Source of the DNA: an uncultured Thermoleophilia bacterium
Lineage (GTDB): Bacteria; Actinomycetota; Thermoleophilia; Solirubrobacterales; 70-9
Length of the DNA stretch: 64,000 bases
Direction: 5' to 3'
Assembly: GCA_963838095.1 (NCBI GenBank)
Contig: CAWIPO010000010.1
Span: forward strand, 25,423 to 89,422
Positions 33,404-47,550 of the stretch are shown one piece after another (within the stretch, counting starts at the first letter, position 1; every line of letters starts with the position of its first letter). The notes under the pieces are model-generated. The model did no database searches, was not told the DNA's origin, and was given only the letters and a program-made list of their open reading frames with translations. The translations under genes and the position numbers were made by a program.

Positions 33404-35197
33404 ATGAGCACCGCTACCGACACTCCGGCGGCCGAGGCGGGCGCCGAGATCGCGCGCAGCGAGGTCCGCAGCGGCGAGGTGACGATCGCGGTCGAGGAGC
33501 GGGGTGATCCCTCGGCAACGTCGATCGTCCTCGTCCACGGGTATCCCGACACGCAGGCGATGTGGAGGCTCGTCGCCGAGCGCCTGGCCGATCGCTTCCA
33601 CGTGGTCACCTACGACGTCCGCGGCGCAGGCGACTCCACTGCTCCCGCGGGGTGGGCCGGATATTCATTCCGGCATCTGATCGAGGACGCCGGCGAGGTG
33701 ATCAGAGCCGTCGCGCCCGGCAAGCGGGTGCACCTGGTCGGCCACGACTGGGGAGCGATCCAGGGGTGGGAGGTCCTGGCCGACGATGCAACCGGGGAGC
33801 GAATCGCGTCGTTCACCTCGATCTCGGGCCCCCCGCTCGACCACATGGGCGACTGGGTCCGCCGCCGGCTCAGGCACCCGACGCTGAAGGGGCTGGCGCA
33901 GCTCGGCGGCCAGCTCCGGCGCTCGTGGTATCTGCTCCCGATCAGCGTGCCCGGGGTCCCCGAGCGGATGTGGCGCAGGGTGGGCGCGAGGCGCTGGCCG
34001 GAGGTGCTGTCGCGGATCGAGCACGCTCGAGTCGACGCCTCCTTTCCGGCGCCGACCCTGGCCACGGACGGCGGCCAGGGCGCTGGCCTGTACAGGCGGA
34101 ACATGGCTCCGCACCTGACGCGACGAAAGCGCCGGGCGCCGATCGAGACGCCGGTGCAGATCATCACCCCGAGCGGCGATCGCTTCGTCTCGCCGCACGC
34201 GCACGAAGGGCTCGAGGAGCGGATCCCCAACATCACCCACCGAAGAGTTGCCGGTGGGCACTGGGCGCCGCGCACCCACCCGGACCTGGTAGCCGGATGG
34301 GTCGCAGGCTTCGTCGACGACGTCGAGAGCGGCACTGCACCACGCACCCGGCGCCCGTTTGACACCGGTGGCGCGCGGCCGCTGGCCGGGCAGGTCGCAC
34401 TCGTCACCGGCGCCGGCAGCGGGATCGGCCGCGCCACCGCGCAGTCGCTCGCCCGCGCGGGAGCGGAGCTGATCGCGGTCGACATCAACCTGGACTCCGC
34501 GCGGGCGACGGCGGAGCTGCTGGCGGCGCACGGGGGCTCGGTCGAAGCCGCCCGTGCCGACGTCGGCGACCTGGATTCGATGCAGGCGCTGGCCGATTCG
34601 GTCGCCGCCGAGCACGGAGCCGTCGACATCCTCGTCAACAACGCCGGGATCGGGGTTGCCGGCCCGTTCCTGGATACGACCGTCGACGACTGGGAGCGCG
34701 TGCTCGAGGTCAACCTCTGGGGCGTGATCCACGGCTGTCGGCTGTTCGGGCGCCAGATGGTCGAGCGCGGGCAGGGCGGCCAGATCGTCAACATCGCCTC
34801 CATGTCCGCCTTCCAGCCATCGAAGGAGACGTCCGCATACTCGACCTCGAAGGCCGCGGTGCTGATGCTCAGCGAGTGCCTGCGCGCGGACCTCGCCGGG
34901 TACGGGATCGGGGTGTGCGCGATCTGCCCCGGATTCATCGCGACGCCGATCACCCGCGCCGCTCACTTCGTCGGCCGAAGTGACGAAGAGCAGGCAGAGC
35001 TTCGCCGGCGCGTCACCACTCTCTACGCGCGGCGCAACTTCAGCCCCGATCGGGTGGGCGAGGAGATCCTCGAGGCGGTGCTTCGCAACGACGCCGTCCG
35101 GTCGGTGGCGCCGGAAGCAAAGCTGATCCGCGGCCTCTCCCGCCTCAGCCCCGGGCTGCTGCGCGCCCTCGCCCGCGTCGACGCGATTCCCGGATGA
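33404..35197 (+). CDS. bifunctional alpha/beta (epoxide) hydrolase plus SDR fusion, EphD-like
   Basis: ORF 33404..35197. It has VHGYPD and VGHDWG (epoxide-hydrolase-type Asp nucleophile), then VTGAGSGIGRA, NNAG and YSTSKAAV. Confidence 0.85.
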   Translation: MSTATDTPAAEAGAEIARSEVRSGEVTIAVEERGDPSATSIVLVHGYPDTQAMWRLVAERLADRFHVVTYDVRGAGDSTAPAGWAGYSFRHLIEDAGEVIRAVAPGKRVHLVGHDWGAIQGWEVLADDATGERIASFTSISGPPLDHMGDWVRRRLRHPTLKGLAQLGGQLRRSWYLLPISVPGVPERMWRRVGARRWPEVLSRIEHARVDASFPAPTLATDGGQGAGLYRRNMAPHLTRRKRRAPIETPVQIITPSGDRFVSPHAHEGLEERIPNITHRRVAGGHWAPRTHPDLVAGWVAGFVDDVESGTAPRTRRPFDTGGARPLAGQVALVTGAGSGIGRATAQSLARAGAELIAVDINLDSARATAELLAAHGGSVEAARADVGDLDSMQALADSVAAEHGAVDILVNNAGIGVAGPFLDTTVDDWERVLEVNLWGVIHGCRLFGRQMVERGQGGQIVNIASMSAFQPSKETSAYSTSKAAVLMLSECLRADLAGYGIGVCAICPGFIATPITRAAHFVGRSDEEQAELRRRVTTLYARRNFSPDRVGEEILEAVLRNDAVRSVAPEAKLIRGLSRLSPGLLRALARVDAIPG

Positions 35198-36689
35198 CGC
35201 TGCCCGACCACACGCGCGTGGCGATCATCGGCGCAGGCTTCTCCGGGCTCTGCATGGCGATCCGCCTGATGCAGGAAGGAATCGACGACTTCGTCGTCCT
35301 CGAGCGCGGCGAGGAGGTCGGCGGCACCTGGCGCGACAACACCTACCCCGGCTGCCAGTGCGACATCCCCTCGGCGCTGTACTCGCTGTCGTTCGCGCCG
35401 AACCCGGACTGGACCCGGCTCTACCCGCTTCAGGAGGAGATCCGTGACTACCTGCAGGGAGTCGCCGCCGACTTCGGCGTGATGCCATACATCCGGCTCG
35501 GGCACGCGGCCACCGATGCAGCGTGGGACGACGACGCAAATCGATGGCAATTACAGACGTCCGAGGGCGACCTGACCGCGGACGTTCTCGTCGGCGGGAT
35601 GGGCGGGCTGACCGAGCCCTCGATCCCCGAAATTCCCGGGCTCGAGAGCTTCGAGGGGACGTTGTTCCACTCCGCCCGCTGGAACCACGACCACGACCTC
35701 AGCGGCGAGCGGGTCGCGGCGATCGGCACCGGGGCGTCGGCGATCCAGTTCGTGCCGATGATCCAGCCGCAGGTCGGAAAGCTGCACCTGTTCCAGCGCA
35801 CGCCGTCGTGGGTGATGCCGGACGCCGACCGCAGCTTGAGCGCATTCGAGCGGCGCATGTTTCGCCGCGTCCCGGCGACCCAGCGGATGCTGCGCGCGGG
35901 CCTCTACCTCCTGCACGAGATGACCGTGTTCGGGACGATCGTCGACCGGCGGCTGTCGAAGGGTCTGCAGATGATCGCCCGCCGGCACCTCGAGAAACAG
36001 GTCGAGGACCCGGAGCTGCGCGAGAAGCTGATGCCCGACTACATCATCGGCTGCAAGCGGATCACGATGTCCAACACCTATTACCCGGCGCTGACCCAGC
36101 CGAACGCCGAAGTCGTCACCGAGCCGATCCGCGAGATTCGCGCACACTCGATCGTGACCGAGGACGGGGTCGAGCGCGAGCTCGACACGATCATTCTCGC
36201 CACCGGCTTCCACGTCCACGACAACCCCGGGATGTCGCGAATCCGCGGCCGCGACGGGCGCTCGATGGCGCGAGACCTGGGAGGGGAGCCCGCGCGCCTA
36301 CATGGGCTCGACGGTCGCCGGCTTCCCGAACCTGTTCCTGCTCGTCGGCCCGAACAGCGCCGGCGGCTACAACTCGATCATCTTCACCATCGAGGCGCAC
36401 GTCAACTACGCCGTCGAGGCGATCAAGGCGATGGACCGGGAGGAACTGGGCGCGGTGGAGGTCCGTCCCGAGGTCTACGACGAGTTCAACCGCAAGGCCG
36501 AGAAGACGCTCACCGGAAGCGTCTGGAACGACGGCGGCTGCTCGAGCTGGTACCTCGACTCCAACGGCCGCAACGGGGTCTGGTGGCCCGGGTTCACATG
36601 GCGGCTGTGGCAGCGGACGCGGCGCTTCGAGCTCGGGGACTACGAGGTGCAGCGCGGCCGCGGCCGAGGCTCGGGCGCCCGTGGCGTAG
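35194..36689 (+). pseudogene. Baeyer-Villiger / flavin-containing monooxygenase (EthA-like); frameshift near 36275, 3' end uncertain
   Basis: ORF 35194.. carries IIGAGFSGL, the BVMO fingerprint FEGTLFHSARWNHD and IGTGASAIQ. It continues in ORF 36302.. at WEGSPRAYMGSTVAGFPNLFLLVGPN...FTWRLWQRTRRFELGDYEV. Its start overlaps the EphD-like stop (ATGA). Confidence 0.75.
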
Positions 36690-36754
36690 GTCCTCTTTCA
36701 GCGGCGATTCGATCTGCGATCATCCAAGTGCAGTGGGAGGGCGTTCGCAGGGAC

Positions 36755-38290
36755 ATGGACGTTCGTGCCTCGTGCCGCTGGCGTTGCTGGCTGCGCTGGC
36801 GCTGCCGAGCGCCGCGGCCGCCTATCCAGCCGTTGGCGTGACCGACCTCGCCGGCGACTCACTCGTCAGCCTCGACACCGCCAACCCGGCGTCGTTCACC
36901 AGCGTGCGGCCGATATCGGGCCTTGCGGCGGGGGAGCGGATCGTCGGGATCGATTACCGGAACGCGCCGGACCCGGTGAACGCCCCGGGAGCCACCCCGC
37001 GGTTGTTCGCGCTCGCGGTCGACGGCAACGGCACCGGGACGAATGCGCGCCTGTACACGGTCGACCCGGGTACGGGAGCAGCGACCGCCGTCGGTGCAGG
37101 TGCTTTCTCGTTCTCCACCGCCTCACCCGCACACGCTTTCGGGTTCGACTTCAACCCCAGGGTGGATCGGATCAGAGCGGTCAACGCCAGCGACGAGAAC
37201 ATGCGGGCCAACCCCAACAACGGCGGCCGCGCCGATTTCCCGGCTAACGACACCGACCTCAACCCCGCCGGGCAGCAGGTGAGCGCGATCGCGTACGACC
37301 GCGTTTCGGAGACCTTCTTGGGAGTACCGAACACCTCGACCGTGTACGGGATCAACCCGGTCACCGACATGCTGGTCACCGTCGGCGGAATCAACGGGAG
37401 TCCGAGCCCGAACGGCGGCGGCGTCTTCGGCATCGGCGGGCTGACCGTGAACGCCGCTTCGGGGGCGAGCATCAACCTCGATATCGCGCTCGACGGGACC
37501 GCCTACGCGACGATGACCGTCGGCGGCAACAGCGGCCTCTACACCGTCAACCTCACGTCCGGGGCGGCGACCCTGATCGCGAACATGGCGAATCCTCTGC
37601 GGGCGTTCGCCGTAGTGCCCGACTCGAGCGTGCAGTTCTCCGCCGAGGCGTTGACGCAGGCCGAGGGCGGCACCGCGACGGTGACGGTGACCCGCACCGG
37701 CTCGCTCGCCTCGACACAAACCGTCGGCTACGAGACCACGGCCGGTACAGCATCCGGCGACAACGACTTCACGCCGGTCTCGGGCAGGCTCAGCTTCGCC
37801 CCCGACGAGGCCGAGAAGAGCTTCGAGCTGCCGACCACGGCCGACTCCGTCGACGAGCCCGACGAGACGGTCGGCGTGCAGCTCACCTCACCCGACGCCC
37901 TGATCTCCGCTCGGCTCGCCCTCCAGCGCCACCTTGACCATCACCGATGGCGACACGACAGCCCCGAGGGTGAAGCTGAGGGGGTTCAGGAAGAAACTGA
38001 CGCTCGACGAGTTCCTGAAGGGGCTGAAGCTGAGGCTGACCCCCGATGAGGAGGCGGCGTTCAGGCTGACGCTGATCCGGGTGGGCGGCGGAGGCGGGAA
38101 ACGGGCGATGGCGGTGCTGGTGTCGCGGTCGCTGAAGCTCGCGTCCGGGACCCGCCGGGTGACCCTGAAGCCGAAGCCGGGGCGCGTCGGCGAGCCGAAG
38201 CAGGCGTTCAAGGTGAGGCTGAAGATCGGCGCCACCGACGCCGCCGGCAACAAGACCCTGATCCGGCGGAAGATCAGGGTCGCCCCATAG
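36755..38290 (+). pseudogene. secreted DUF4394 domain protein with a C-terminal Calx-beta domain; frameshifts near 36758 and 37910
   Basis: ATG 36755 follows GGGAGGG. The signal peptide (G)RSCLVPLALLAALALPSAAAA is one base out of frame with the ATG. DUF4394-like sequence follows (IVGIDYRNA...GFDFNPRVDRIRAV...). The Calx-beta part is FSAEALTQAEGGTATVTVTRTG...DNDFTPVSGRLSFAPDE..., and its tail SATLTITDGD continues in ORF 37934..38290. Confidence 0.7.
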
Positions 38291-39527
38291 CCAGCACCTG
38301 CTCGGCGGCGGCGCGGCCGCTGCGGATCGCGCCCTCCATCAAGCCGTTGAACGGGCCTCCCATGTGCTCGCCGGCGAAGAGGAGCGGGCCGACCGGCTCG
38401 GCGAGTGCGGCGAGGCGGCCGGGCTCCGGCGAGATCGAGTAGGCGGCGCCGACCCACGGGTCGTCGTCCCACGTGGAGAGCACCGCGCGCTCAGGCTCGA
38501 GCGCGAGGTCGGGGCGCAGGCGGGCGAGCGAGCCGAGCCAGGTCTCCGGTCCCTCGGCCACCCGCAGGTTTCCGAGCGCCGCCGGCGAGCCGCTGAAGCA
38601 GCTCACCACCGGCATCGGCGCCCCGCCGGGACCCGTCGCCGTCCAGCACCAGTAGCGCTCGGGGACGCTCATCACCGCGCCCACCGGCACCGGTTCCGCC
38701 AGCGGCACGAACAGCTTCGCCGCGTGGCCGTAGCGGACCGAGGCGAGCGCGTCGGTCTTCGCCGCCGGCAGCGGCGGGTCGAAGGCGATCCGACCGGTAA
38801 CCGCGGCGGGAACCGCGACCACGCAGGCATCGGCGAGGAGCTCGTCGCCGCGCTCCGGAGCGACCCGTACCCGCGGCCCCGATGCACGCTCGCCCTCACC
38901 GCCCCAGCCGATCGCGGTCACCGGGCTCGAAAGCAGGACGGCATCACCGAGCCCCGCCGCCAGCCCCAGCGACAGTCCCTGGTTTCCGCCGGCGACGCCC
39001 GGCGCGGGCGTGGTGTCGATGTGCGCGATGCCGGTGAAGTCGGTGGCGGGGATGTCGTCGGCCGAGCTGGCGGAGGAGATCTCCGCGCGGGCGAGGATCG
39101 CCTCGCGGGCGCCGGGGTCGAGCTCGAGCGAGTCGAGCAGCTCCCGGATCGAGGGGCGTCCGTCGAGACCGGCGGCGATCGCGCGATCGACGACGCGAAC
39201 GGCGCCGGCGAGCGCTTCGGCGCTCGTCCCGATCCCGCCTCGAGGCTCGCGCTCGCCGTAGCGCATGCCCTTGTCCCAGAGCCTGAGCCCGAGGTCCGCG
39301 GCCAGCTCGCGCACGGCGGTGTTGCCGGCGAGGATGAACTCGGCCCCCATCTCGACCACCGATCCGTTGGCGAGCTCCCGAGACCATGTTCGCCCGCCCA
39401 CGCGATCGCGGGCCTCGAGCACCGCTACTTCGATCCCGGCAGCGGCGAGCGCGTCCGCCGCCGACAGCCCGGCGAGTCCGGCGCCGACGACGACCGCCCG
39501 CTCCACCTTCGAGCCCGTCGCCGGCAT
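38274..39527 (-). CDS. flavin-containing amine oxidase (no signal peptide)
   Basis: ORF 38274..39527: VVVGAGLAGLSAADALAAAGIEVAVLEARDRVGGR...FAGEH. The frame is intact. Confidence 0.85.
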   Translation of the reverse strand: MPATGSKVERAVVVGAGLAGLSAADALAAAGIEVAVLEARDRVGGRTWSRELANGSVVEMGAEFILAGNTAVRELAADLGLRLWDKGMRYGEREPRGGIGTSAEALAGAVRVVDRAIAAGLDGRPSIRELLDSLELDPGAREAILARAEISSASSADDIPATDFTGIAHIDTTPAPGVAGGNQGLSLGLAAGLGDAVLLSSPVTAIGWGGEGERASGPRVRVAPERGDELLADACVVAVPAAVTGRIAFDPPLPAAKTDALASVRYGHAAKLFVPLAEPVPVGAVMSVPERYWCWTATGPGGAPMPVVSCFSGSPAALGNLRVAEGPETWLGSLARLRPDLALEPERAVLSTWDDDPWVGAAYSISPEPGRLAALAEPVGPLLFAGEHMGGPFNGLMEGAIRSGRAAAEQVLAMGRP

Positions 39528-39534
39528 CGCTTTC

Positions 39535-40638
39535 CTACGCGAGCGACTGCAGGAAGATGATCGCGACGCCGGCGAAGTAGAGCCCGGTCAGCCACGCGAG
39601 GCCGCGGCGGTCGGCGCGGACGGCGCTGGTGATGTCGCCGGTCGCGTCGACCCACGAGTTGCGCACGATCACCGCCATCGTCAAGACGACGAACCCGTAG
39701 CTGAGGATGTAGAGCTTGTCGAGCAGGATCAGGTAGTCGACCTCGGGCAGGCTGGAGTTACTGGTCAGCTGCAGGGCGACCAGCGTCAGCAGCGCGGTGA
39801 TCCCGATCCCGATCCGGCCCTCGACGAACTGCGGATGTACCAACAGCGACAGCGTCGCGGTCAGCGCGACGAGCAGCATCGGCAGCAGCAGCTTCAACGC
39901 GTACGTGCCCTTCGGCCGGCTGACGGGAAGGTCGAAGACGGCGCGCGAGTACGTCGCCCCGCCCGCGAATCGGGGGTCGCCGAAATCGGTGTCGTAGGTG
40001 TTGTCGACCACGGTCAGGGTCGGATCGCCGATGTCCCAGCCCGGGATGGTGAGGCTGTCGGTGAGCGAGATCGGATCGTTGTCCGGCTCGAACACAGTCC
40101 CGCTGACGTCGGCGGTCGTGTCCTCGATCTCGACCCGCAGGTGCTGGGTGTCGAACGGGTACTGCTCGAGTGGGAGCTTGGTGTTGAACTTGCCCTGGAT
40201 GCGGAGTACCTGGTAGAGCGTGCCGTCGTCGAGCACCTCCGGCTTCGATGTCTCGTAGCTGAGGATGTGACCCCAGAGCTCGAACGCGTTCATGAACTCG
40301 AACGAGCGCGCGGGGTCGATGTCCGGGTTGGTCCACTTGAACCAGATGTACATGTCGACGTTGTAGGAATGCGACTGCAGATCGAGCTGCTGAATGTCGT
40401 TGATCAGCCCGCCGATGCGGACGACGTCGGGCGCGTCGGCGGCGGGGTCGGCGCCATCGGCGCCTTCTGAGCGCTCGGGGCTGAGGCGGTCGCTGTTATC
40501 CGCGGCGCCCTGGGGCGGGCCGCTGTCGCCGCCCCCGTCCTGCCCGGTGGCATCGCCGGTGAACGAGGGGATCGCGACTGCCGCCGCGATCGCACAGGCG
40601 AAGACAACAGCTAGCAGCCGCGCAGCCCGTCGTCCCAT
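39535..40638 (-). CDS. prokaryotic pentameric ligand-gated ion channel (Cys-loop receptor superfamily homolog)
   Basis: C-terminal 367 aa of ORF 39535..41118. ATG 40638 follows GGGAGA. It has a signal peptide, an acidic linker, an ectodomain (YNVDMYIWFKWTNPDID, LEQYPFDTQHLRVEIE), then M1 to M3 (YALKLLLPMLLVALTATLSLL, RIGIGITALLTLVALQLTS, LILLDKLYILSYGFVVLTMAVIV), a short loop and M4. Confidence 0.8.
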   Translation of the reverse strand: MGRRAARLLAVVFACAIAAAVAIPSFTGDATGQDGGGDSGPPQGAADNSDRLSPERSEGADGADPAADAPDVVRIGGLINDIQQLDLQSHSYNVDMYIWFKWTNPDIDPARSFEFMNAFELWGHILSYETSKPEVLDDGTLYQVLRIQGKFNTKLPLEQYPFDTQHLRVEIEDTTADVSGTVFEPDNDPISLTDSLTIPGWDIGDPTLTVVDNTYDTDFGDPRFAGGATYSRAVFDLPVSRPKGTYALKLLLPMLLVALTATLSLLVHPQFVEGRIGIGITALLTLVALQLTSNSSLPEVDYLILLDKLYILSYGFVVLTMAVIVRNSWVDATGDITSAVRADRRGLAWLTGLYFAGVAIIFLQSLA

Positions 40639-40682
40639 CGCGTCAGTCTCCCACTTCGGGGAGAGGTCGCCAGGTGTGGGGG

Positions 40683-41642
40683 TCAGGACCCGGAGTAGCC
40701 GACCGCCCCGATACCCGGGAGCACCGGCACGCACGGTGGGTCCGGTGCGCGCTTCGGGTCGAGGGCGCGGTGGATGAACCCGGCGGTGACCGGGTCCGCC
40801 GCCACGGCGAGGTGCTCGGCGAGGTCCTGCTCGCAGTAGTCCTGCAGGACTACGTTTGTGATCCCGGGGCCGGGCTCCATCAGCCCGCTCGTGTACGGGA
40901 TCACGAGCTGGTCGTAGCGGGTGACGATGTTGGTGTAGGTGACGCCCGCCGCCGCGACGCCGCCCTCGTTCATCTTCTCGAGGAAGTTCGAGCCATGGAC
41001 GAACTGCGGGCAGGAGCGGCAGTAGTCCTGGAACAGCGGGTAGGCGTTCTCGTCGATCCCGAACGCCCGCGCGAGCTCGGCGAGGACGAATGCGCCACCG
41101 AGCTGGGTGCCGTCCCACAGCGTTGTCAGCCCGACGTAGTCGTCGATCTTGCGGGCGCCGTCGAGGAACTTGACGTAGTAGTTCGGCATCAGGCTGCCCT
41201 CGGAATGGCCGACGATGTCTACCTCCTCGGCGCCGGTCGCCCGCAGCACTTTGTTGACGAAGCGCTTCAGCTCCCTGGAGCTGCGCTCCATTCGCTCCAG
41301 CCCGCCGGGCCGGTAGTACTTGCCTGGGGCCTCGACGCCCTCGATGCGGCCATAGGTGAGAGAGAACACGCAGTAGCCGCGATTGAAGAGGAAGGGCGAG
41401 ATCGTCTGCCAGTTGACCGTCTGGTTGGCGACCAGGCCGTGCGTGAGGATGACCGGGTCGGGATGGCGCTTGCGCGGCTTGCAGTCGAAGTCGTTCGAGC
41501 CGGGCGGGGAGAGATCGGGGTTCTCCTCCGAGGTCGGCGGCGCGGTGAAGGTCCAGGGCACGGGCAGCTTCTCCTTTGCCGCCGCACCGGCGGCAAGGGC
41601 GAGGGCGGCGGTGAGCGAGATCAGGCAGGCGAGGGTCTTCAC
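40683..41642 (-). CDS. secreted lipase/esterase (alpha/beta hydrolase, GHSEG)
   Basis: C-terminal 319 aa of ORF 40683..42608. GTG 41642 overlaps the upstream stop (GTGA). The signal peptide is VKTLACLISLTAALALAAGAAA, and DIVGHSEGS is present. Confidence 0.8.
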   Translation of the reverse strand: MKTLACLISLTAALALAAGAAAKEKLPVPWTFTAPPTSEENPDLSPPGSNDFDCKPRKRHPDPVILTHGLVANQTVNWQTISPFLFNRGYCVFSLTYGRIEGVEAPGKYYRPGGLERMERSSRELKRFVNKVLRATGAEEVDIVGHSEGSLMPNYYVKFLDGARKIDDYVGLTTLWDGTQLGGAFVLAELARAFGIDENAYPLFQDYCRSCPQFVHGSNFLEKMNEGGVAAAGVTYTNIVTRYDQLVIPYTSGLMEPGPGITNVVLQDYCEQDLAEHLAVAADPVTAGFIHRALDPKRAPDPPCVPVLPGIGAVGYSGS

Positions 41643-43123
41643 AACTCGGAGGTCACCTCTTCGACGACGCGCTCGCCGGAGCGCACGGCACCGTCCATGT
41701 AGCCGTTCCAGTAGGTCGAGGTCTCGGTGCCGGCCCAGTGGATGCGGCCGGACGGCTTTCGCAGCGCGGCGCCGTATTGGGTGTAGACGCCGGGAGCGGC
41801 GATTGCGGTGGGGCCGCCGCGCGTCCAGCGCTCGCGGGTCCAGTTGGACTCGAAGTAGATGTTCGGTTTCGCCGCCTTCGGCCCGAACCCGGCGACGAGG
41901 TCCGCCAGCGCTGCGCGGCGGCGCTCTGACTTGGGCATGGTGTTGAAGAGGCGCGCCTTGTCGCCTCCGGCGAAGCCGAAGATGATCCCGGGATTGCCGT
42001 CTGGCGGAGAGTCGTCGACGGTGTAGTTGATCATCCCGTCCATGTTCACCATCTGGCCGTTGAGCCCGTCCTCGCGCCAGAACGGGGTGTCGTAGACGAC
42101 CCCGACCTTGTTCAGCGCTCCCTGAGGCAGGCGCTGCATCAGCATGTCGCGTCCGACGGGCAGCCCGGGGCGGTAGTCGATCCTGCCGGCCAGGGTGGGT
42201 GGGATGGCGACGATCACCCGCTTTGCGCGCACCACACCGCGGTCGTGGTGGACGACGACTCCGCCGCCGTCCTGGACGATCCGGCGCACCGGCGCTCGCA
42301 GCATCACGCGGTCGCCGAGCTGGGCGGCGACGCGCAGCGGGATCAGGAACGAGCCGCCGTGGAAGCGCGACTCCTGGGCGCCGCCGCGGACGTTGAAGTT
42401 GCGTTCGAACGTGCCCACGTTCTCCTCGTTGCCGGAGGCGGCGATGTAGAAGAGCACGAACAGCAACGAGAGCTCGGCGGGCTCGGCGCCGAAGATCGGC
42501 CGCGTGGCCACCGGCACGATCTTGCGAAAGCGCGGGCTGGCGCTGTTGTCCCGGATCCAGGTCTCGAAGGTCTGGTTGTCGTACTCGATCGCGTTCGGCG
42601 CCGCCCACGGCTCGTCGACGCCGACCTCGATCGACATCTCGTTCAGCCGGGTGACTACGAGCGCCAGGTCGGGGAGGATCTGCGGATCCGGCGGCGCGGT
42701 GCCGGTGACGCCGGTGTCGCTGTATGTAGTGCGCGAGCCCTCCGCGATGTACACGTTCTCGCCCGGCACCGAGGTCTCGAAGGTGCGCACGCGCATCGCC
42801 TTGGCGAGCGCCATCAGGCGGTCCTGTGTGGGGCCGACGAACGTGCCGCCCGCCTCGGAGATGTTGCCGCCCGGAAGCTCGTGGTTCAAGACGCGCCCGC
42901 CGACCCGGTCTCGTGCTTCGAGCACGGCGACCGAATGGCCCGCGCGAACGAGGCCCCGGGCCGCTGTCAGGCCCGCGAGCCCGGCGCCGACGATTGCGAC
43001 ATCGACGGCGCGATCGCGCCGGCGCCTGGATCCGAGCGCACGCCCGCCGGGTCCCAGCAGCGTCACGGCGCCGGCGGCGCCGGCACCGATCAGCGTCCGC
43101 CGCGTCATCCCCCGTTTGCTCAT
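41639..43123 (-). CDS. flavin-containing amine oxidase with a twin-arginine (Tat) signal
   Basis: C-terminal 494 aa of ORF 41639..43606, starting at ATG 43123: MSKRGMTRRTLIGAGAAGAVTLLGPGG, then VAIVGAGLAGLTAARGL...LEARDRVGGR. Confidence 0.85.
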   Translation of the reverse strand: MSKRGMTRRTLIGAGAAGAVTLLGPGGRALGSRRRRDRAVDVAIVGAGLAGLTAARGLVRAGHSVAVLEARDRVGGRVLNHELPGGNISEAGGTFVGPTQDRLMALAKAMRVRTFETSVPGENVYIAEGSRTTYSDTGVTGTAPPDPQILPDLALVVTRLNEMSIEVGVDEPWAAPNAIEYDNQTFETWIRDNSASPRFRKIVPVATRPIFGAEPAELSLLFVLFYIAASGNEENVGTFERNFNVRGGAQESRFHGGSFLIPLRVAAQLGDRVMLRAPVRRIVQDGGGVVVHHDRGVVRAKRVIVAIPPTLAGRIDYRPGLPVGRDMLMQRLPQGALNKVGVVYDTPFWREDGLNGQMVNMDGMINYTVDDSPPDGNPGIIFGFAGGDKARLFNTMPKSERRRAALADLVAGFGPKAAKPNIYFESNWTRERWTRGGPTAIAAPGVYTQYGAALRKPSGRIHWAGTETSTYWNGYMDGAVRSGERVVEEVTSEL

Positions 43124-43147
43124 CGTTGGAATTATGGTCTGCCGAGC

Positions 43148-43816
43148 ATGTTCGAGCGCCAGCGGGAGGAGGTTGCAGATGCCGCGCGCCGGCTGGCCGC
43201 CGAAGGCCTGCTTGTCGGCACGGCCGGGAACGTGAGCGCGCGCGTGGGCGAGTCGATAGCGGTCACGCCCACCGGCGCGGTTCTCGGCGAGCTCGAGCCG
43301 AGCCAGGTGACGGTCGTCGATCCGTCGGGCGCGGTGGTCGAGGGAGAGCTCGAGGCGACGTCCGAGCTCGACCTGCACCTGGGGATCTACTCCCGTTACG
43401 ACGCCGGCGCAGTGGTGCACACGCACGCGCCGATCGCAACGGCGCTCTCGTGCGTCATCGACGAGCTGCCCTGCATCCACTACCAGATGCTCTTGCTCGG
43501 CGGGGACGTTCGCGTCGCGCGCTACGAGACGTTCGGGACCCCGGAGCTGGCGCAGTCGGTGCTGGATGCGCTCGAGGGGAGAACCGCCGCGCTGATGGCG
43601 AACCACGGCGCGATTGCGTTCGGCTCCGATCTCGGGGAGGCCGTGGAGCGAACGCTGCTGCTCGAATGGGCGTGCTCGGTGTATCTGAGAGCGGCGGCGC
43701 TGGGGACGCCGCGGGTCCTCGACGCGGAGCAGCAGCAGGCGGTGGTGGAGGCGGCGATCGCGCGCGGGTATGGATCGACGAGGAAGATCGACGAGGGGAA
43801 GGGCGCGGGAGCTTGA
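43148..43816 (+). CDS. class II aldolase/adducin family protein
   Basis: C-terminal 222 aa of ORF 42245..43816, starting at ATG 43148: GTAGNVSARV...AVVHTHAP...MANHGAIAFG. Confidence 0.85.
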   Translation: MFERQREEVADAARRLAAEGLLVGTAGNVSARVGESIAVTPTGAVLGELEPSQVTVVDPSGAVVEGELEATSELDLHLGIYSRYDAGAVVHTHAPIATALSCVIDELPCIHYQMLLLGGDVRVARYETFGTPELAQSVLDALEGRTAALMANHGAIAFGSDLGEAVERTLLLEWACSVYLRAAALGTPRVLDAEQQQAVVEAAIARGYGSTRKIDEGKGAGA

Positions 43817-44872: not shown

Positions 44873-46315
44873 TCAGAGTTCGATGGCTCGAGCGACGAAC
44901 TCCCGCCACTCGGCGTGGGCGGCGTCGCGCCACTCGGCGTCGCGGGTCGGCTCCACGCGCTCGCCCGCCGGAATCCGCTCCCCGATCTCCCGGGTCCCCG
45001 ACCAGATCCCCGCTCCGACGGCGGCCAGCGCCGCCGCTCCCGCCACGGTTGCGTCCACGGCGCCGCGCTGAACGGAGACTCCCGCGGCGTCGGCTTGGAG
45101 TTGGAGCAGCGTCGGGTCGCGGGTGAGGCCGCCGTCCACCCGTAGCACTTCGACCGGGACCGACTGCCGCGTGGCCTCGACGACGTCGGCCACCCGCCAC
45201 GCGATCGCCTCAAGCGCCGCCCGGGCTATGTGGGCGGGACGGGTGGCCGAGGTGAGCCCGGCGATCACGGCGCGCGCCTCGGGTCGCCACCATGGCGCCC
45301 CGACCCCGGCGAGGGCGGGGAGGACGCGGACGCCACCTGCGTCATCGACCTCGGCGGCGGAAGCCGCGAGAGCCGCTGGATCGGCGGCGAGGCCGAGATC
45401 GCGCGTCAGCCACTCGAGCAGCTCGCCGGCGGTGAAGACGCCGCCGTCGATCGCCCACTCGACCTCCCCGTTGACCCGCCAGGCGACGGTGGGGAGGAGG
45501 CCGCCGGCCGGCTCCGGGCGCTCGGAGCCCCCGTGCGCGAGCACGAAGACGCCGGTTCCGTACGTCGCCTTCACCCGGCCGGGCTCGGTGCAGCCGGCGC
45601 CGGCGAGCGCCGCCTGCTGGTCGGGGCAGCGGGCGCGGAGCGGGAGCTCGCCGGGCCACGAGTCGTGATGGAGCATGCCGAGATCGCCTGCTGTGTCGGC
45701 GATCTCCGGAAGCGCGTCCCGCGGAACGCCGAAGATCTCCAGCAGCACCGGGTCGAAGTCCGGAGCTCCTAGCTGGGTGCGCGAGGCGGTCGCCGGGTCG
45801 GTGGCAAACCCGGCCCCGAGCCGGTCGCAGAGGAACGAGTCCACGGTCCCCATTCGGGCGGTTCCGGCGGCGACCGCGGCCGCGACCTCTGCGTCGTTCT
45901 CCAGCAGCCAGGCCAGCTTCCCTGCCGAGAAGTACGGGTCGAGGGGCAATCCGCTGCGCTCGCGGATCTCCTCCGCTTGCCCTTCCGAGTCCAGTCGGTC
46001 CAGCACCTCCTGGGAGCGCTTGTCCTGCCAGGTGACGATCGGCGTCAGCGCGCGGCCGGACTCGGCATCCCAAGCAAGCACCGACTCCCCCTGATGGTCG
46101 AGCCCGCAGGCGTCGACATCGGCGCCATCCTGGAGCAGTTCCGACACGGCGTCGACGACACACGTGACAACTTCCTCGCCATCCTGCTCCACCCACCCAG
46201 GGCGGGGGTGGTGGAGGCGTTTCTCACGACGCGCTTCGGCGACCGGTCGCAGGTCGGCGTCGAACAGGACCGCCTTCACGGCCGACGTTCCTTCGTCGAT
46301 CCCGAGCAGCATCAA
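44873..46315 (-). CDS. FGGY family carbohydrate kinase (glycerol kinase-like)
   Basis: ORF 44873..46315: LLGIDEGTSAVKAVLFD...ATYGTGVFVL...RVDGGLTRD. Confidence 0.85.
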   Translation of the reverse strand: MMLLGIDEGTSAVKAVLFDADLRPVAEARREKRLHHPRPGWVEQDGEEVVTCVVDAVSELLQDGADVDACGLDHQGESVLAWDAESGRALTPIVTWQDKRSQEVLDRLDSEGQAEEIRERSGLPLDPYFSAGKLAWLLENDAEVAAAVAAGTARMGTVDSFLCDRLGAGFATDPATASRTQLGAPDFDPVLLEIFGVPRDALPEIADTAGDLGMLHHDSWPGELPLRARCPDQQAALAGAGCTEPGRVKATYGTGVFVLAHGGSERPEPAGGLLPTVAWRVNGEVEWAIDGGVFTAGELLEWLTRDLGLAADPAALAASAAEVDDAGGVRVLPALAGVGAPWWRPEARAVIAGLTSATRPAHIARAALEAIAWRVADVVEATRQSVPVEVLRVDGGLTRDPTLLQLQADAAGVSVQRGAVDATVAGAAALAAVGAGIWSGTREIGERIPAGERVEPTRDAEWRDAAHAEWREFVARAIEL

Positions 46316-46354
46316 CCCGGCAGGCTAATCGCTGGCTTCGCCAGGGGGAAGGCA

Positions 46355-46377
46355 GACGAACGGCAGCATCGAGGGAG
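46355..46377 (-). repeat. intergenic motif copy (reverse orientation): GACGAACGGCAGCATCGAGGGAG
   Basis: A solo copy in the 110-nt gap between the FAD oxidase stop and the FGGY kinase start. Confidence 0.6.
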
Positions 46378-46394
46378 CCGGCAATCCATTCTGA

Positions 46395-46429
46395 GTGAAT
46401 CTGGGCCCGGTTTCCGGGCCTGGATTCAC
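46395..46429 (+). other. 16-bp hairpin GTGAATCTGGGCCCGG-TTT-CCGGGCCTGGATTCAC
   Basis: On the plus strand there are 14 Watson-Crick pairs plus two adjacent G-U pairs. On the minus strand those two positions become A-C mismatches. The right arm covers the stop codon of the minus-strand gene 46426..47550. Confidence 0.55.
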
Positions 46430-47550
46430 GCGTGTAAGTCGGCCGTGCGGCGCCACCAGCCGGCTTCGGCCGGCGCCGGCGGGCCGGCCTCGAGCGGTGT
46501 CTCTTCGGCCAGCTCCACCCCGAGCTCGGCGACCAGCGTGCAGACGTACTCGGCGATCCCCAGGGACGCCGTCAACCCCGTGGAGCGGATCGCTGCGACG
46601 TTGATCAGCCGTGGCGCCGCCTCCGAATGCCCGATCAGGTAGTTGACCCCGCGGCCGGCGGGGCGCAGGCCCGCGTAGGCAAAGATCGGCTCGGACCCCT
46701 CAAGCGCCGGCAGCATCGCCACCACCTTGGGAACGATCTCCTCGCGCGCTTCCGGCCGCACCGACCAGTCGCGCTTGTCGGTGCCGTCGACCGCCGTCGG
46801 TCCGGCGATCACGCGCCCATCGACAGTGGGGAAGACCAGCACGCCCTTGGTGCTCTCGCTGGGAACGGGGAGCAGAATGCGATCGAGCGGATCGCCACCC
46901 GGCGGGTCGAAGACCAGGAACTCGCCCTTGCGCGGATAGATCTCGAACGAGTCGTCGCCGGCCTCCCGCGCGACTTCGTCGGCGTAAAGGCCGGCGCAGT
47001 TGACCAGCACCCGGCAGCCCACAGCGTCACCGCCGTTCGAGCGCACAGAGAAGCGCTCGCCGCTGCGATCGACGCTGGCGACGCGAAAGCGCGTGCGCAG
47101 CTCGGCCCTGTGGCGCTGCGCGGCGGCGGCGAGCCCCAGCGTGTAGGCAACAGGATCGCACACGAACTCGCCCGGCACCTCGAGCGAGCCGTCGTCCGCG
47201 AGCCGCGTCTCGATCCCGTTCGCCTCGGCGTTCCGGGCCAGTTCCGCGATCGGCTCACGCTGCGCGGGCTCGAGCGCGCGCATCACCGCGCCGCATCTGA
47301 CCGTCGGAACGCCGAGCATCTCCAGTACTCCGGCGCGCAGCTCCGCCGAGCGCAGGATCAGCTCGGTCTCGAGCTCGCCCGGCACGGAGTCGAACCCGGT
47401 GTGGACGATGCCCGAGTTGGTGCCGCTGGCTCCCAGCCCCGGCTCGGGCTCGGCTTCGAGCAGCGCAACGTCGACCCCGCGCCGCGCGAGCGCGAGCGCG
47501 CACGCCGAGCCGACCACTCCGGCTCCGGCGATCGCCACCTCGATGTCCAT
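46426..47550 (-). CDS. FAD-dependent oxidoreductase (DAO family; glycerol-3-phosphate or 2-hydroxyglutarate oxidase-like)
   Basis: ORF 46426..47550: VAIAGAGVVGSACALALARRG...GLRP. Confidence 0.8.
   Translation of the reverse strand: MDIEVAIAGAGVVGSACALALARRGVDVALLEAEPEPGLGASGTNSGIVHTGFDSVPGELETELILRSAELRAGVLEMLGVPTVRCGAVMRALEPAQREPIAELARNAEANGIETRLADDGSLEVPGEFVCDPVAYTLGLAAAAQRHRAELRTRFRVASVDRSGERFSVRSNGGDAVGCRVLVNCAGLYADEVAREAGDDSFEIYPRKGEFLVFDPPGGDPLDRILLPVPSESTKGVLVFPTVDGRVIAGPTAVDGTDKRDWSVRPEAREEIVPKVVAMLPALEGSEPIFAYAGLRPAGRGVNYLIGHSEAAPRLINVAAIRSTGLTASLGIAEYVCTLVAELGVELAEETPLEAGPPAPAEAGWWRRTADLHA

What the first reader, a model, noticed from the sequence alone, without database searches (positions are those of the whole stretch)
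38274..43123. Pentameric ligand-gated ion channel embedded in an operon with two flavin amine oxidases and a secreted lipase
Four co-directional minus-strand genes are tightly packed, with a GTGA overlap at 41639-41642 and gaps of 44 nt and 7 nt. In order they are: (1) a Tat-signal amine oxidase (MSKRGMTRRTLIGAGAAG); (2) a secreted GHSEG lipase/esterase; (3) a 367-aa protein with a signal peptide, a ~45-aa acidic linker, a beta-rich ectodomain and four TM helices; (4) a second amine oxidase with no signal peptide. The ectodomain of gene 3 carries the Cys-loop-family signature without the cysteines (LEQYPFDTQHLRVEIE). Its TM region has an M2-like pore helix (RIGIGITALLTLVALQLTS) and a short M3-M4 loop. 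Together these are the architecture of a bacterial pLGIC. The characterised bacterial pLGICs are gated by protons (GLIC) or by small primary amines (ELIC). A channel placed between an exported and a cytoplasmic amine oxidase therefore suggests an amine-gated channel coupled to amine oxidation, possibly acting on amines released by the lipase/esterase. I know of no described operon with this composition. The same window also encodes an ethanolamine/polyamine-type gamma-glutamylation pathway.
Basis: partly seen in the sequence, partly recalled or inferred. Interest (0 to 1): 0.8.

Follow-up and report, generated by a model that had tools for sequence, protein, structure and literature searches.

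The report
Bacterial pLGIC in one-off amine-oxidase cluster
The gene is a genuine bacterial relative of neurotransmitter-gated ion channels, tightly packed with two amine oxidases and a lipase, but this packing occurs only in this genome, so it says little about what opens the channel.

Summary
Four intact minus-strand genes lie at 38274-43123, with a GTGA overlap and 44-nt and 7-nt spacers, and no terminator at any junction.

[quoted passage not shown] It matches GLIC and ELIC in PDB sequence searches (E 1e-11 to 1e-17), and its AlphaFold model matches GLIC, GlyR and GABA-A receptors (Foldseek E about 1e-17). The Pro-loop YPFD, the pre-M1 Arg, and E-2'/T6'/L9' in M2 are all present.
- AO1 is MAO-like and AO2 resembles 4-methylaminobutanoate oxidase. 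The lipase is of the Streptomyces secreted type.

The functional reading, an amine-gated channel coupled to amine oxidation, rests on gene context, and that context is not conserved.

- None of 94 loci carrying a channel homolog has an amine oxidase or lipase nearby.
- AO2 orthologs sit behind a PotABCD-like importer in every locus where upstream genes could be read.
- The closest lipase homolog sits alone between the same flanking genes as in the window.

Independently of context, the whole channel subfamily keeps ELIC's ammonium-binding loop-B Glu and three pocket aromatics, so an amine or amino-acid agonist is plausible.

Verdict: a new member of a known kind in a lineage-specific, probably co-transcribed cluster. 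Interest is moderate to low.

The parts
41639..43123 (-). AO1: MAO-family flavin amine oxidase, 494 aa, with an N-terminal RR-motif extension (putative Tat signal)
   Evidence: Pfam PF01593 at 5.7e-70 over residues 49-490. PDB matches: bacterial monoamine oxidase 8p84 at 2.5e-99, cyclohexylamine oxidase, human MAO-A/B and putrescine oxidase. The Tat signal rests on the motif only; Pfam and NCBIfam gave no hit on the N-terminal 41 aa.
40683..41642 (-). Secreted class-2 lipase/esterase, 319 aa, GTG start, GHSEG nucleophile elbow
   Evidence: Pfam Lipase_2 at 4.4e-17, 62.8 bits against a 20.3 cutoff. PDB match to Streptomyces putative secreted lipase 5h6b/5h6g at 1e-59. The closest homolog, P0242 (71% identity), stands alone between the same flanking genes.
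41639..41642 (-). GTGA overlap of the AO1 stop and the lipase start
   Evidence: Read directly from the sequence: GAG TTG TGA overlapping GTG AAG ACC.
40639..40682 (-). 44-nt lipase-channel spacer with a GGGAGA Shine-Dalgarno at 40647-40652, 8 nt before the ATG
   Evidence: Sequence read. No terminator-like site falls here.
39535..40638 (-). pLGIC subunit, 367 aa: signal peptide (residues 1-25, 40564-40638), acidic low-complexity linker (26-70, 40429-40563), beta-sandwich ectodomain (71-243, 39910-40428), four TM helices (244-367, 39538-39909)
   Evidence: NCBIfam TIGR00860 at 1.3e-16 and NF033918 at 1.7e-13. PDB phmmer matches GLIC and ELIC constructs at 1e-11 to 1e-17 over residues 64-326. 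AlphaFold model has pLDDT 75.5 with helices 245-266, 272-296, 300-332 and 336-366. Foldseek top hits are GLIC, GlyR and GABA-A receptors at E about 1e-17, TM about 0.7.
40150..40161 (-). Pro-loop (Cys-loop equivalent) YPFD, residues 160-163
   Evidence: Invariant in a 38-sequence family alignment. P161 and D163 are kept in 88/88 homologs.
39751..39825 (-). M2 pore helix, residues 272-296, with E273 (-2'), R275 (0'), T281 (6') and L284 (9')
   Evidence: Register fixed by alignment to the GLIC-GlyR and ELIC-GABA-A chimeras. E or D at -2', and R0', T6' and L9', are conserved in 88/88 homologs.
39528..39534 (-). 7-nt channel-AO2 spacer, with a Shine-Dalgarno-like AGGAAAG spanning the channel stop codon
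   Evidence: Sequence read. This fits translational coupling, which is an inference.
38274..39527 (-). AO2: cytoplasmic flavin amine oxidase, 417 aa, of the 4-methylaminobutanoate oxidase (MABO)-like subfamily
   Evidence: Pfam PF01593 at 1.7e-52. PDB match to 7rt0 at 1.9e-70 over the full length. Orthologs (67-74% identity) are the last gene of PotABCD-like importer operons.
43124..43147 (.). 24-nt divergent intergenic region between the AO1 start and the class II aldolase start
   Evidence: Sequence read. A CATAAT hexamer lies 7 nt before the AO1 ATG, which hints at a leaderless transcript (inference). The sigma-70 consensus scan found nothing.

Best explanation
[quoted passage not shown] It belongs to a strongly conserved subfamily that is common in Solirubrobacterales and other Thermoleophilia and extends, at 39-57% identity, to other metagenomic lineages.

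By analogy with solved relatives, it most likely forms a homopentamer that sits in the membrane with the beta-sandwich domain outside. Binding of a small protonated amine or amino acid at the subunit interface would open a cation-selective pore. The pocket includes a loop-B Glu and three aromatic residues shared with ELIC. Cation selectivity is inferred from Glu at -2', as in GLIC.

In this genome the channel gene is probably co-transcribed with an MAO-like oxidase that looks exported, a secreted lipase and a MABO-like cytoplasmic oxidase. That arrangement is a lineage-specific assemblage at a locus where the nearest lipase homolog stands alone, not a conserved functional module. The lipase sits alone between the same flanks in the closest syntenic contig. 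AO2's relatives normally follow a polyamine-type ABC importer. Channel orthologs elsewhere have unrelated, varied neighbours. The channel is therefore best seen as a stand-alone chemosensory channel. Its co-expression with amine oxidases here is either incidental or a young, local coupling.

Shown: homology, fold, motif conservation, gene spacing and lack of synteny. Inferred: pentamer, ion selectivity, agonist class and co-transcription.
For: Channel identity:
- Profile and sequence hits.
- hhalign to the ELIC-GABA-A receptor chimera (ELIC ectodomain, GABA-A pore): probability 98.7%, E 1.9e-16.
- AlphaFold model plus Foldseek.
- Invariant YPFD, pre-M1 Arg, M1 Pro, M2-M3 Pro, and E-2'/R0'/T6'/L9'.

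Family size: 480 hits among 8000 scored candidates, the 120 listed at 60-76% identity. In the all-against-library search, 197 cluster representatives score at E<=1e-30.

Pocket: ELIC E131, Y38, Y175 and F188 map to E172, Y97, Y215 and Y230, and these are conserved in 88/88 homologs. The roles of the ELIC residues are taken from PMC3119659.

Operon-like spacing with no terminators.

Non-conservation of the cluster:
- 0 of 94 channel loci has an AO or lipase relative.
- The closest channel homolog (75% identity) is flanked by NicO/FUR/hyp genes and an enoyl-CoA hydratase.
- A relative's contig holds both orthologs about 186 kb apart.
- AO2 orthologs sit in SBP-permease-permease-PotA-AO operons; a PotA-type ATPase passes the TIGR01187 cutoff.
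- Lipase homolog P0242 (71% identity) stands alone between DUF4394/Calx-beta and Aldolase_II, with TetR_C_43 and MFS nearby, as in the window.
- Other lipase homologs lie in unrelated contexts.
Against: - Within this genome the packing is very tight, with a 7-nt gap and a Shine-Dalgarno-like stretch over the stop codon. Co-expression of the channel and AO2 is therefore likely, and co-expression can reflect real function even in a young operon.
- No genus-level relative was available (best channel homolog 75-76%, best AO2 78%, best lipase 71%), so conservation over short evolutionary distances is untested.
- The best AO2 homolog (P0122, 78%) lies on a 3.3-kb contig whose upstream gene is cut and unidentified.
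- AO1's relatives and their contexts could not be examined.
- The ELIC-like pocket fits an amine agonist, which is what the coupling hypothesis needs.
- The window does hold other amine-catabolic genes 7-16 kb away.
- Which arrangement is ancestral at the lipase locus cannot be polarised for AO1 and the channel.
Confidence: 0.6

Rival explanations
1. The four genes form a young but genuine functional module. An extracellular amine, possibly released or exposed by the secreted lipase/esterase, opens the channel. The exported AO1 removes that amine outside the cell and so terminates or tunes the signal. AO2 oxidises the same or a related amine inside the cell.
For: - Tight co-directional packing, a Shine-Dalgarno site before each downstream gene, and no terminators.
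- The pocket keeps ELIC's ammonium-contacting loop-B Glu and three aromatics.
- AO2 resembles an oxidase of N-methyl-GABA, and GABA-like amines open ELIC (PMC3119659).
- ELIC itself lies next to an amine-producing decarboxylase (PMC3119659).
- FAO enzymes with a Tat signal and no adjacent cytochrome c behave as extracytoplasmic oxidases (PMC12224317).
Against: - The module is absent from all 94 other channel loci, all 5 readable AO2 loci and all 4 lipase loci.
- The window's channel is a typical family member with no pocket changes relative to homologs lacking oxidase neighbours, so nothing marks it as specialised.
- The lipase is closest to a Streptomyces secreted lipase and lies near GlpK- and GlpO-like genes. 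That points to lipid and glycerol use rather than amine release.
Confidence: 0.25
2. The channel acts as an uptake route. In relatives AO2 follows a PotABCD-type importer; here the importer's place is taken by a cation-selective pLGIC. When opened, its wide pore would let small protonated amines flow in down the membrane potential to be oxidised by AO2.
For: - The AO2 position is conserved directly behind a membrane transport system (gaps of 1-10 nt) in 5 loci, against 7 nt behind the channel here.
- The pore is predicted to be cationic, with E at -2'.
- That cationic pLGIC pores pass small organic amines is textbook knowledge, not tested here.
Against: - No bacterial pLGIC is known to serve in nutrient uptake.
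- An open non-selective cation pore would dissipate the membrane potential.
- The same channel family occurs in many genomes with no oxidase nearby.
- The replacement could simply be the by-product of a rearrangement.
Confidence: 0.07
3. The juxtaposition is an assembly artefact of a metagenome-assembled genome: a chimeric join or collapsed region.
For: The source is evidently a MAG contig. The identical proteins come from a single 116-kb contig and their relatives are all MAGs. The window shows three apparent frameshifts in other genes, which suggests indel errors.
Against: - All four genes are intact and share the same GC3 (0.90-0.93).
- The junctions are exact gene boundaries with a Shine-Dalgarno site or a start/stop overlap, which a random chimeric join would not produce three times.
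- The outer flanks (TetR, MFS, DUF4394/Calx-beta, lipase, aldolase) are syntenic with an independent JGI contig.
- No repeats that could mediate misassembly were found.
Confidence: 0.03

Closest known systems
ELIC (Erwinia/Dickeya chrysanthemi ligand-gated ion channel)
   Same: Same superfamily and architecture: no Cys-loop cysteines and a very short M3-M4 loop. hhalign to the ELIC-GABA-A receptor chimera gives probability 98.7%. The pocket residues E131, Y38, Y175 and F188 have conserved counterparts. ELIC is opened by small primary amines including GABA, and its gene lies next to a putative amino-acid decarboxylase (PMC3119659), so an amine-metabolic neighbourhood has a precedent.
   Different: About 25% identity in the profile alignment to the ELIC-GABA-A chimera. 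ELIC F133, N103 and R91 are not conserved (T174, V144, E134). This protein has a 45-residue acidic linker after the signal peptide. Its neighbours are oxidases and a lipase rather than a decarboxylase, and they are not conserved.
GLIC (Gloeobacter violaceus proton-gated channel)
   Same: Best PDB sequence and fold matches are GLIC ectodomain chimeras and GLIC itself. Glu at pore position -2', which I recall as GLIC's selectivity-filter position; the register was fixed on the chimera alignments, not on a GLIC pore alignment.
   Different: About 18-20% identity. In the alignment GLIC lacks the loop-B Glu and the loop-C Tyr that this family shares with ELIC, so proton gating is not the default expectation.
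Prokaryotic ART-LGIC/pLGIC inventories (Tasneem et al. 2005, PMC549065; Jaiteh et al. 2016, PMC4795631)
   Same: This is a simple ligand-binding domain plus 4-TM bacterial form, as described there. Tasneem et al. predicted that such proteins act as chemoreceptors for small solutes.
   Different: Tasneem et al. reported conserved neighbours of PBP-II or Cache proteins and a Na+/H+ transporter, not oxidases. Neither paper mentions Actinobacteria, Solirubrobacter or Conexibacter. This Thermoleophilia clade is listed as 'hypothetical protein' or left unnamed.
4-methylaminobutanoate oxidase MABO (PDB 7rt0), and the PotABCD-like importer plus oxidase operons of Solirubrobacterales relatives
   Same: AO2 aligns with 7rt0 over its full length at E 1.9e-70. 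AO2 is 67-74% identical to the oxidases that end those importer operons.
   Different: In the window AO2 follows a pLGIC instead of the ABC ATPase. The BetI-like TetR, Rieske oxygenase and CN-hydrolase neighbours seen in relatives are absent.
Bacterial and human monoamine oxidases, cyclohexylamine oxidase and putrescine oxidase (8p84, 4i58, 2bxr, 2yg3)
   Same: AO1 matches all of these over its full length at E 1e-75 to 1e-99.
   Different: AO1 carries an N-terminal RR-motif extension that suggests export. No cytochrome c gene is adjacent, which in the FAO superfamily goes with true oxidase chemistry (PMC12224317). Its substrate is unknown.
Streptomyces putative secreted lipase (PDB 5h6b/5h6g)
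   Same: E 1e-59 over residues 44-308, the class-2 lipase fold and a GHSxG elbow.
   Different: Here the start codon overlaps an upstream oxidase gene. The substrate is untested.

Membership tests
Pentameric ligand-gated ion channel (pLGIC / Pro-loop receptor) superfamily | N-terminal extracellular beta-sandwich followed by four transmembrane helices | tested here: met
   The AlphaFold model (pLDDT 75.5) has about 10 strands in residues 71-240 and helices 245-266, 272-296, 300-332 and 336-366. Foldseek finds 1108 PDB matches at E<=0.001, and every one of the 50 listed is a pLGIC (GLIC and its chimeras, GlyR, GABA-A, GluCl).
Pentameric ligand-gated ion channel (pLGIC / Pro-loop receptor) superfamily | Significant sequence homology to known members | tested here: met
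   PDB phmmer E 1.4e-17 to 1e-10 against GLIC and ELIC constructs over residues 64-326. TIGR00860 at 1.3e-16 and NF033918 at 1.7e-13. hhalign to the ELIC-GABA-A chimera gives 98.7%.
Pentameric ligand-gated ion channel (pLGIC / Pro-loop receptor) superfamily | Passes the curated Pfam or NCBIfam thresholds (PF02931, PF02932, TIGR00860, NF033918) | tested here: not met
   PF02931 16.7 bits against 26. PF02932 16.5 against 28.1. TIGR00860 60.4 against 280. NF033918 50.7 against 500. This is a divergent member, which explains why the homologs are listed as hypothetical or unnamed.
Pentameric ligand-gated ion channel (pLGIC / Pro-loop receptor) superfamily | Pro-loop/Cys-loop motif (aromatic-Pro-x-Asp) and a pre-M1 Arg partner | tested here: met
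   Y160-P161-F162-D163 and R241 are invariant in 38 family members. P161, D163 and R241 are kept in 88/88 homologs.
Pentameric ligand-gated ion channel (pLGIC / Pro-loop receptor) superfamily | M2 pore pattern (charged ring at -1'/-2', polar 6', Leu 9') and conserved M1 and M2-M3 prolines | tested here: met
   E273 (-2'), R275 (0'), T281 (6'), L284 (9'), P253 and P298 are conserved in 88/88 homologs, with E or D at -2' and P298 in 87/88.
Pentameric ligand-gated ion channel (pLGIC / Pro-loop receptor) superfamily | Assembly into a pentamer with a central ion pore, and gating by a ligand | not testable with these tools
   Only a monomer could be modelled. No multimer prediction or experiment was available.
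ELIC-type amine-gated channels | Agonist pocket residues of ELIC: E77, I79, E131, F133, Y175, F188 (principal side) and Y38, N103, R91 (complementary side) | tested here: inconclusive
   Conserved: E131->E172, Y38->Y97, Y175->Y215 and F188->Y230 (88/88). E77->E120 holds only in the clade with at least 58% identity. Not conserved: F133->T174, N103->V144, R91->E134, I79->W122 (ELIC residues from PMC3119659). This fits a cationic amine or amino-acid agonist but does not prove one.
Conserved operon / functional gene module (pLGIC plus flavin amine oxidases plus lipase) | The same gene neighbourhood recurs in related genomes | tested here: not met
   0 of 94 channel loci (about 640 kb of flanks) has an AO1, AO2 or lipase relative at E<=1e-3. 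AO2 orthologs lie in ABC-importer operons. Lipase homologs have no oxidase or channel nearby. One contig holds both orthologs 186 kb apart.
Flavin-containing amine oxidoreductases (PF01593), AO1 and AO2 | Full-length match above the Pfam threshold with the N-terminal GxGxxG FAD-binding fold | tested here: met
   AO1 scores 237 bits and AO2 180 bits against a cutoff of 19.8. Both match NAD_binding_8 and have full-length PDB relatives.
Tat-exported proteins (AO1) | Twin-arginine signal peptide | tested here: inconclusive
   The T-R-R-T-L-I-G motif is followed by a hydrophobic stretch and lies in an N-terminal extension absent from cytosolic homologs. Pfam and NCBIfam gave no hit on the N-terminal 41 aa. 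No dedicated signal-peptide predictor was available.
Class 2 lipases (PF01674) | Profile match above threshold and a GxSxG nucleophile elbow | tested here: met
   62.8 bits against 20.3. The GHSEG motif is in the translation. PDB match to 5h6b at 1e-59.

The most novel reading that the evidence does not exclude
In this one lineage, an ELIC-like amine-sensing cation channel has been recruited into a young operon and translationally coupled to a MABO-like oxidase that in relatives follows a polyamine-type ABC importer. The channel would then act as the sensor for, or even the entry route of, the amine that the two oxidases consume outside and inside the cell. That would be the first physiological role and natural ligand class assigned to a bacterial pLGIC from its native genetic context.
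Probability: 0.15. Interest if true: 0.7.

Novelty: new member of a known kind. Interest (0 to 1): 0.33.

Why it matters
The physiological role and natural ligands of bacterial pLGICs remain largely unknown, even though GLIC and ELIC are the main structural models for neurotransmitter receptors. A channel reliably embedded in an amine-catabolic operon would have made that question testable. The comparative evidence shows that the embedding is not reliable.

What remains useful:
- A large, strongly conserved and essentially unannotated pLGIC subfamily in Thermoleophilia and other soil and sediment bacteria. Its ELIC-like pocket core makes it a reasonable target for an amine or amino-acid agonist screen.
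- One natural case of channel-oxidase co-expression that could be tested cheaply.
- The observation that MABO-like oxidases in these bacteria normally end PotABCD-type importer operons.

Tried and rejected
- Looking up the window's own channel protein (P0001) to get its annotated contig returned nothing on record, so the source genome and its other loci could not be read. The cluster look-up gave no accession or organism name either.
- Two AO2 contigs and the key lipase contig had gene tables but no DNA. The breakpoints at the lipase locus and the cut gene upstream of the 78%-identical AO2 homolog could therefore not be examined.
- Library scans (Pfam, NCBIfam) of AO1's N-terminal 41 aa found nothing, Tat signal profiles included.
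- The promoter consensus scan found no sigma-70-like site, and the terminator scan found only chance-level sites inside coding sequence.
- The Rfam scan of 36-46 kb found no riboswitch or other RNA.
- The repeat search at 37.5-43.8 kb found only short GC-rich chance matches and the shared FAD-motif DNA of the two oxidases. There were no insertion-element ends or target duplications.
- Clustering the neighbours of channel homologs found conserved partners only in the distant (under 58% identity) branch: a secreted protein immediately downstream, and P450-, DedA-like and thioredoxin-like genes by my reading of the printed sequences (not scanned against any library). None was found in the Solirubrobacterales clade and none was amine-related.
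- The literature search for pLGIC plus operon plus amine oxidase returned no paper containing 'pLGIC' among the 15 listed.
- A pentamer model was not possible with the tools.

Full report
**1. The observation**

The window is about 70% GC throughout. Four minus-strand ORFs lie at the stated coordinates:
- AO1, 41639-43123, 494 aa
- lipase, 40683-41642, 319 aa, GTG start
- channel, 39535-40638, 367 aa
- AO2, 38274-39527, 417 aa

Each has third-position GC of 0.90-0.93, and the sliding frame plot switches frame exactly at the predicted boundaries.

The junctions are as described:
- The AO1 stop and the lipase GTG start share GTGA.
- A 44-nt spacer carries GGGAGA 8 nt before the channel ATG.
- Only 7 nt separate the channel stop from the AO2 ATG, and an AGGAAAG stretch spans the stop codon.

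No terminator-like hairpin lies in any junction. The two sites reported are inside genes and at chance level, 2 found against 1.4 expected. No Rfam family matches between 36 and 46 kb.

Opposite-strand genes bound the cluster. A DUF4394/Calx-beta gene converges on AO2 and overlaps its end. A class II aldolase starts 24 nt from the AO1 start and runs the other way. The four genes therefore form a self-contained co-directional unit, and co-transcription is the natural reading, though it is untested.

**2. The four proteins**

*Channel.* Pfam gives only sub-threshold hits to Neur_chan_LBD and Neur_chan_memb, but all other evidence is decisive:
- NCBIfam TIGR00860 at 1.3e-16 and LGIC_1 at 1.7e-13.
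- phmmer against PDB sequences gives 251 matches at E<=1. All 60 listed are pLGICs: GLIC, ELIC, a GABA-A subunit and chimeras, at E 1e-17 to 1e-10 over residues 64-326.
- A 38-sequence family profile aligns to the ELIC-GABA-A receptor chimera (ELIC ectodomain, GABA-A pore) with 98.7% probability.
- An AlphaFold model built on that alignment (pLDDT 75.5) has a beta-sandwich, four helices and a three-residue M3-M4 loop.
- Foldseek returns GLIC, GlyR, GABA-A and GluCl chains at E about 1e-17 and TM about 0.6-0.7.

The family-defining residues are invariant: YPFD of the Pro-loop, the pre-M1 Arg241, the M1 and M2-M3 prolines, and a pore register of E-2', G-1', R0', T6', L9'. The single cysteine is in the signal peptide, so there is no Cys-loop disulfide, as in GLIC and ELIC. 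After the signal peptide comes a 45-residue Gly/Ala/Asp-rich linker that the model leaves disordered. It varies freely among homologs.

*AO1.* A full-length MAO-family enzyme. PDB matches are the bacterial MAO 8p84 at 2.5e-99, cyclohexylamine oxidase, human MAO-A/B and putrescine oxidase. It has a roughly 35-40-residue N-terminal extension carrying TRRTLIG and a hydrophobic stretch. Pfam and NCBIfam gave no hit on that stretch, so export is likely but not shown. In this superfamily, Tat-signal enzymes without an adjacent cytochrome c gene behaved as true oxidases (PMC12224317).

*Lipase.* Class 2, with a GHSEG elbow. It is closest to a Streptomyces putative secreted lipase, 5h6b at 1e-59.

*AO2.* It has no signal peptide and aligns end to end with 4-methylaminobutanoate oxidase, 7rt0 at 1.9e-70.

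**3. Is the neighbourhood conserved?**

I collected loci around channel homologs from three sources:
- 12 species-representative genomes, all MAGs (seven titled Solirubrobacterales; the rest Thermoleophilia, Conexibacter, Actinomycetota or unclassified), with 6-kb flanks.
- 80 metagenome contigs.
- Two further MAG contigs.

Of the first 93 loci, 64 have at least 1.3 kb downstream and 59 have at least 1.3 kb upstream of the channel gene. A tblastn search with AO1, AO2 and the lipase finds nothing in any of the 94 loci, about 640 kb of flanking DNA, even at E<=1e-3. The same search readily detects AO2 orthologs and, at 28% identity, AO1-to-AO2 cross-matches in control loci.

Further points:
- The closest channel homolog (75% identity) lies between NicO/FUR/hyp genes and an enoyl-CoA hydratase.
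- Another (63% identity) overlaps a glyoxalase gene.
- No neighbour is conserved within the Solirubrobacterales clade. Only the distant branch has recurrent partners, and none is amine-related.

**4. Where the other three genes live in relatives**

*AO2.* Its homologs at 67-74% identity were read in five loci from four look-ups. In four loci the oxidase is the last gene of a binding protein-permease-permease-ATPase operon, 1-10 nt behind the ATPase. In the fifth only a TOBE-domain fragment of the ATPase is called upstream. A convergent CN-hydrolase lies downstream, directly or after one or two intervening genes. In the operon scanned against NCBIfam (L017), the binding protein is PotD/PotF-like, the ATPase passes the TIGR01187 polyamine-transporter cutoff, and a BetI-like TetR regulator lies just upstream. 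The best AO2 homolog (78%) lies on a 3.3-kb contig whose upstream gene is cut and unidentifiable.

One MAG contig of 328,566 bp carries both an AO2 ortholog, in its importer operon at about 116 kb, and a channel ortholog at about 303 kb. The two are about 186 kb apart.

*Lipase.* The closest homolog (71% identity) lies on a 14-kb contig that is syntenic with the window:
- Relative: TetR_C_43 regulator, MFS transporter, then, beyond three other genes, DUF4394/Calx-beta, lipase, class II aldolase.
- Window: TetR at 31096-31695, MFS at 31860-33335, DUF4394/Calx-beta at 36772-38290, and the aldolase at 43148-43816.

On that contig the lipase stands alone between the convergent DUF4394 gene and the divergent aldolase. 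There is no AO1, no channel and no AO2. Three other loci of lipase homologs are unrelated in context.

The four-gene cluster is therefore specific to this lineage. For AO2 the derived state is clear, because its relatives share a different, conserved home. For AO1 and the channel the direction of change, gain here or loss there, cannot be fixed. I found no repeats or mobile-element traces.

**5. What the channel sequence says about its ligand**

ELIC's agonist-pocket residues are listed in PMC3119659: Glu131 and Phe133 in loop B, Tyr175 and Phe188 in loop C, Tyr38 in loop D, Asn103, and Glu77 and Arg91 near the ligand. Pairwise and profile alignments agree on how they map:

| ELIC residue | Window residue | Conservation |
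|---|---|---|
| E131 | E172 | 88/88 homologs |
| Y38 | Y97 | 88/88 homologs |
| Y175 | Y215 | 88/88 homologs |
| F188 | Y230 | Tyr in 86, Phe in 2 of 88 homologs |
| E77 | E120 | only in the clade with at least 58% identity |
| F133 | T174 | not conserved |
| N103 | V144 | not conserved |
| R91 | E134 | not conserved |

The conservation figures come from 88 homologs down to 39% identity.

In the alignment GLIC lacks the loop-B Glu and the loop-C Tyr. The subfamily as a whole thus looks built to hold a protonated amino group, as in ELIC. This holds regardless of genomic context, and the window's protein shows no pocket change that would tie it to its unusual neighbours. Cation selectivity is inferred from Glu at -2', which I recall as GLIC's selectivity-filter position.

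**6. Context in the window**

Amine catabolism is represented nearby but not adjacent:
- a dimethylglycine/sarcosine-dehydrogenase-like enzyme at 50044-52512
- a choline/ethanolamine kinase at 52496-53371
- an amino-acid permease at 53537-55207
- a glutamine-synthetase-like ligase at 55217-56623
- a peptidase C26 amidohydrolase at 56656-57381
- an aldehyde dehydrogenase at 57378-58739
- an SDR at 58736-59485

Closer to the lipase are a GlpK-like kinase and a glycerol-3-phosphate-oxidase-like gene at 44873-47550. These fit a lipid and glycerol role for the lipase.

**7. Comparison with what is known**

- Bacterial pLGICs were predicted to be chemoreceptors, with PBP-II, Cache or Na+/H+ transporter neighbours (PMC549065).
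- ELIC's amine agonists were linked to an adjacent putative amino-acid decarboxylase (PMC3119659). A pLGIC next to amine metabolism is therefore not new in concept. Oxidases and a lipase as neighbours are new, but only in this genome.
- Neither inventory paper mentions Actinobacteria.
- The full-text search, which asked for at least three of the terms pLGIC, bacterial, operon and amine oxidase, listed no paper containing 'pLGIC' among the 15 shown.
- The subfamily is large, with 197 cluster representatives at E<=1e-30 and 4837 for the superfamily at E<=1e-3. Its members are listed as 'hypothetical protein' or left unnamed.

**8. Verdict**

The identification of a bacterial pLGIC flanked by two flavin amine oxidases and a secreted lipase is correct, and co-transcription is likely. 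It survives only as a lineage-specific possibility.

This is a new member of a known kind. Interest is moderate to low. The main residual value is a well-conserved, unannotated channel subfamily whose pocket core resembles ELIC's, and one natural co-expression case that is cheap to test.

Noticed in passing
window 35194-36841 (+): A Baeyer-Villiger/FMO-like monooxygenase appears split by a frameshift near 36250-36300. The N-terminal part matches FMO-like profile positions 3-331 of 532. A second ORF in another frame (36302-36841) has high GC3 and reads like the missing C-terminal part. This is either a pseudogene or an indel error in the assembly.
   Followed up: partly
window 36772-38290 (+): The DUF4394 plus Calx-beta secreted protein seems to continue in another frame at 37934-38290, where GC3 is 0.94. 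The homolog on the syntenic JGI contig is a single 518-aa protein. This is a second apparent frameshift. Its end overlaps the AO2 stop by 17 nt in convergent orientation.
   Followed up: partly
window 53537-55207 (+): An amino-acid permease is split. Residues from 53537-54445 cover AA_permease_2 profile positions 4-246, and 54761-55207 weakly covers 347-426. Three broken genes in 64 kb suggest indel errors typical of long-read MAGs, so frame-dependent claims elsewhere in the window need care.
   Followed up: partly
L014, L015, L016, L017 (gene at 8001-9215 or equivalent) and the P0123 contig: In Solirubrobacterales relatives the MABO-like oxidase is the last gene of a PotABCD-like ABC importer operon. 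Near it lie a BetI-like TetR, a GbcA-like Rieske oxygenase, a convergent CN-hydrolase and a second PotD-like binding protein plus importer. This looks like a conserved catabolic island for an unidentified amine or quaternary amine.
   Followed up: partly
window 43124-43147: Only 24 nt separate the divergent starts of AO1 and the class II aldolase. On the syntenic contig the lipase and aldolase starts even overlap by 2 nt. A CATAAT hexamer lies 7 nt before the AO1 ATG. Both points hint at leaderless transcripts or at promoters inside the neighbouring coding sequence.
   Followed up: no
L030-L097, distant branch (39-47% identity): In 22 loci the channel homolog is followed about 120 nt downstream, on the same strand, by a conserved secreted protein of roughly 400-500 aa. 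P450-, DedA-like and thioredoxin-like genes (my reading of the printed sequences, not scanned against any library) recur nearby. This is a conserved neighbourhood for that branch, unrelated to amine oxidases.
   Followed up: no
window 47584-50051 (-): A cNMP-binding/CBS/DUF294 nucleotidyltransferase is paired with an RNase T-type exonuclease. The pair sits between the glycerol genes and the dimethylglycine-dehydrogenase-like gene. It was not examined further.
   Followed up: no
window 44873-47550 (-): A GlpK-like kinase (TIGR01311 at 6.8e-127, below its cutoff) and a type-2 glycerol-3-phosphate-oxidase-like gene lie 1.7 kb from the cluster. This suggests the resident lipase belongs functionally with glycerol utilisation.
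   Followed up: partly
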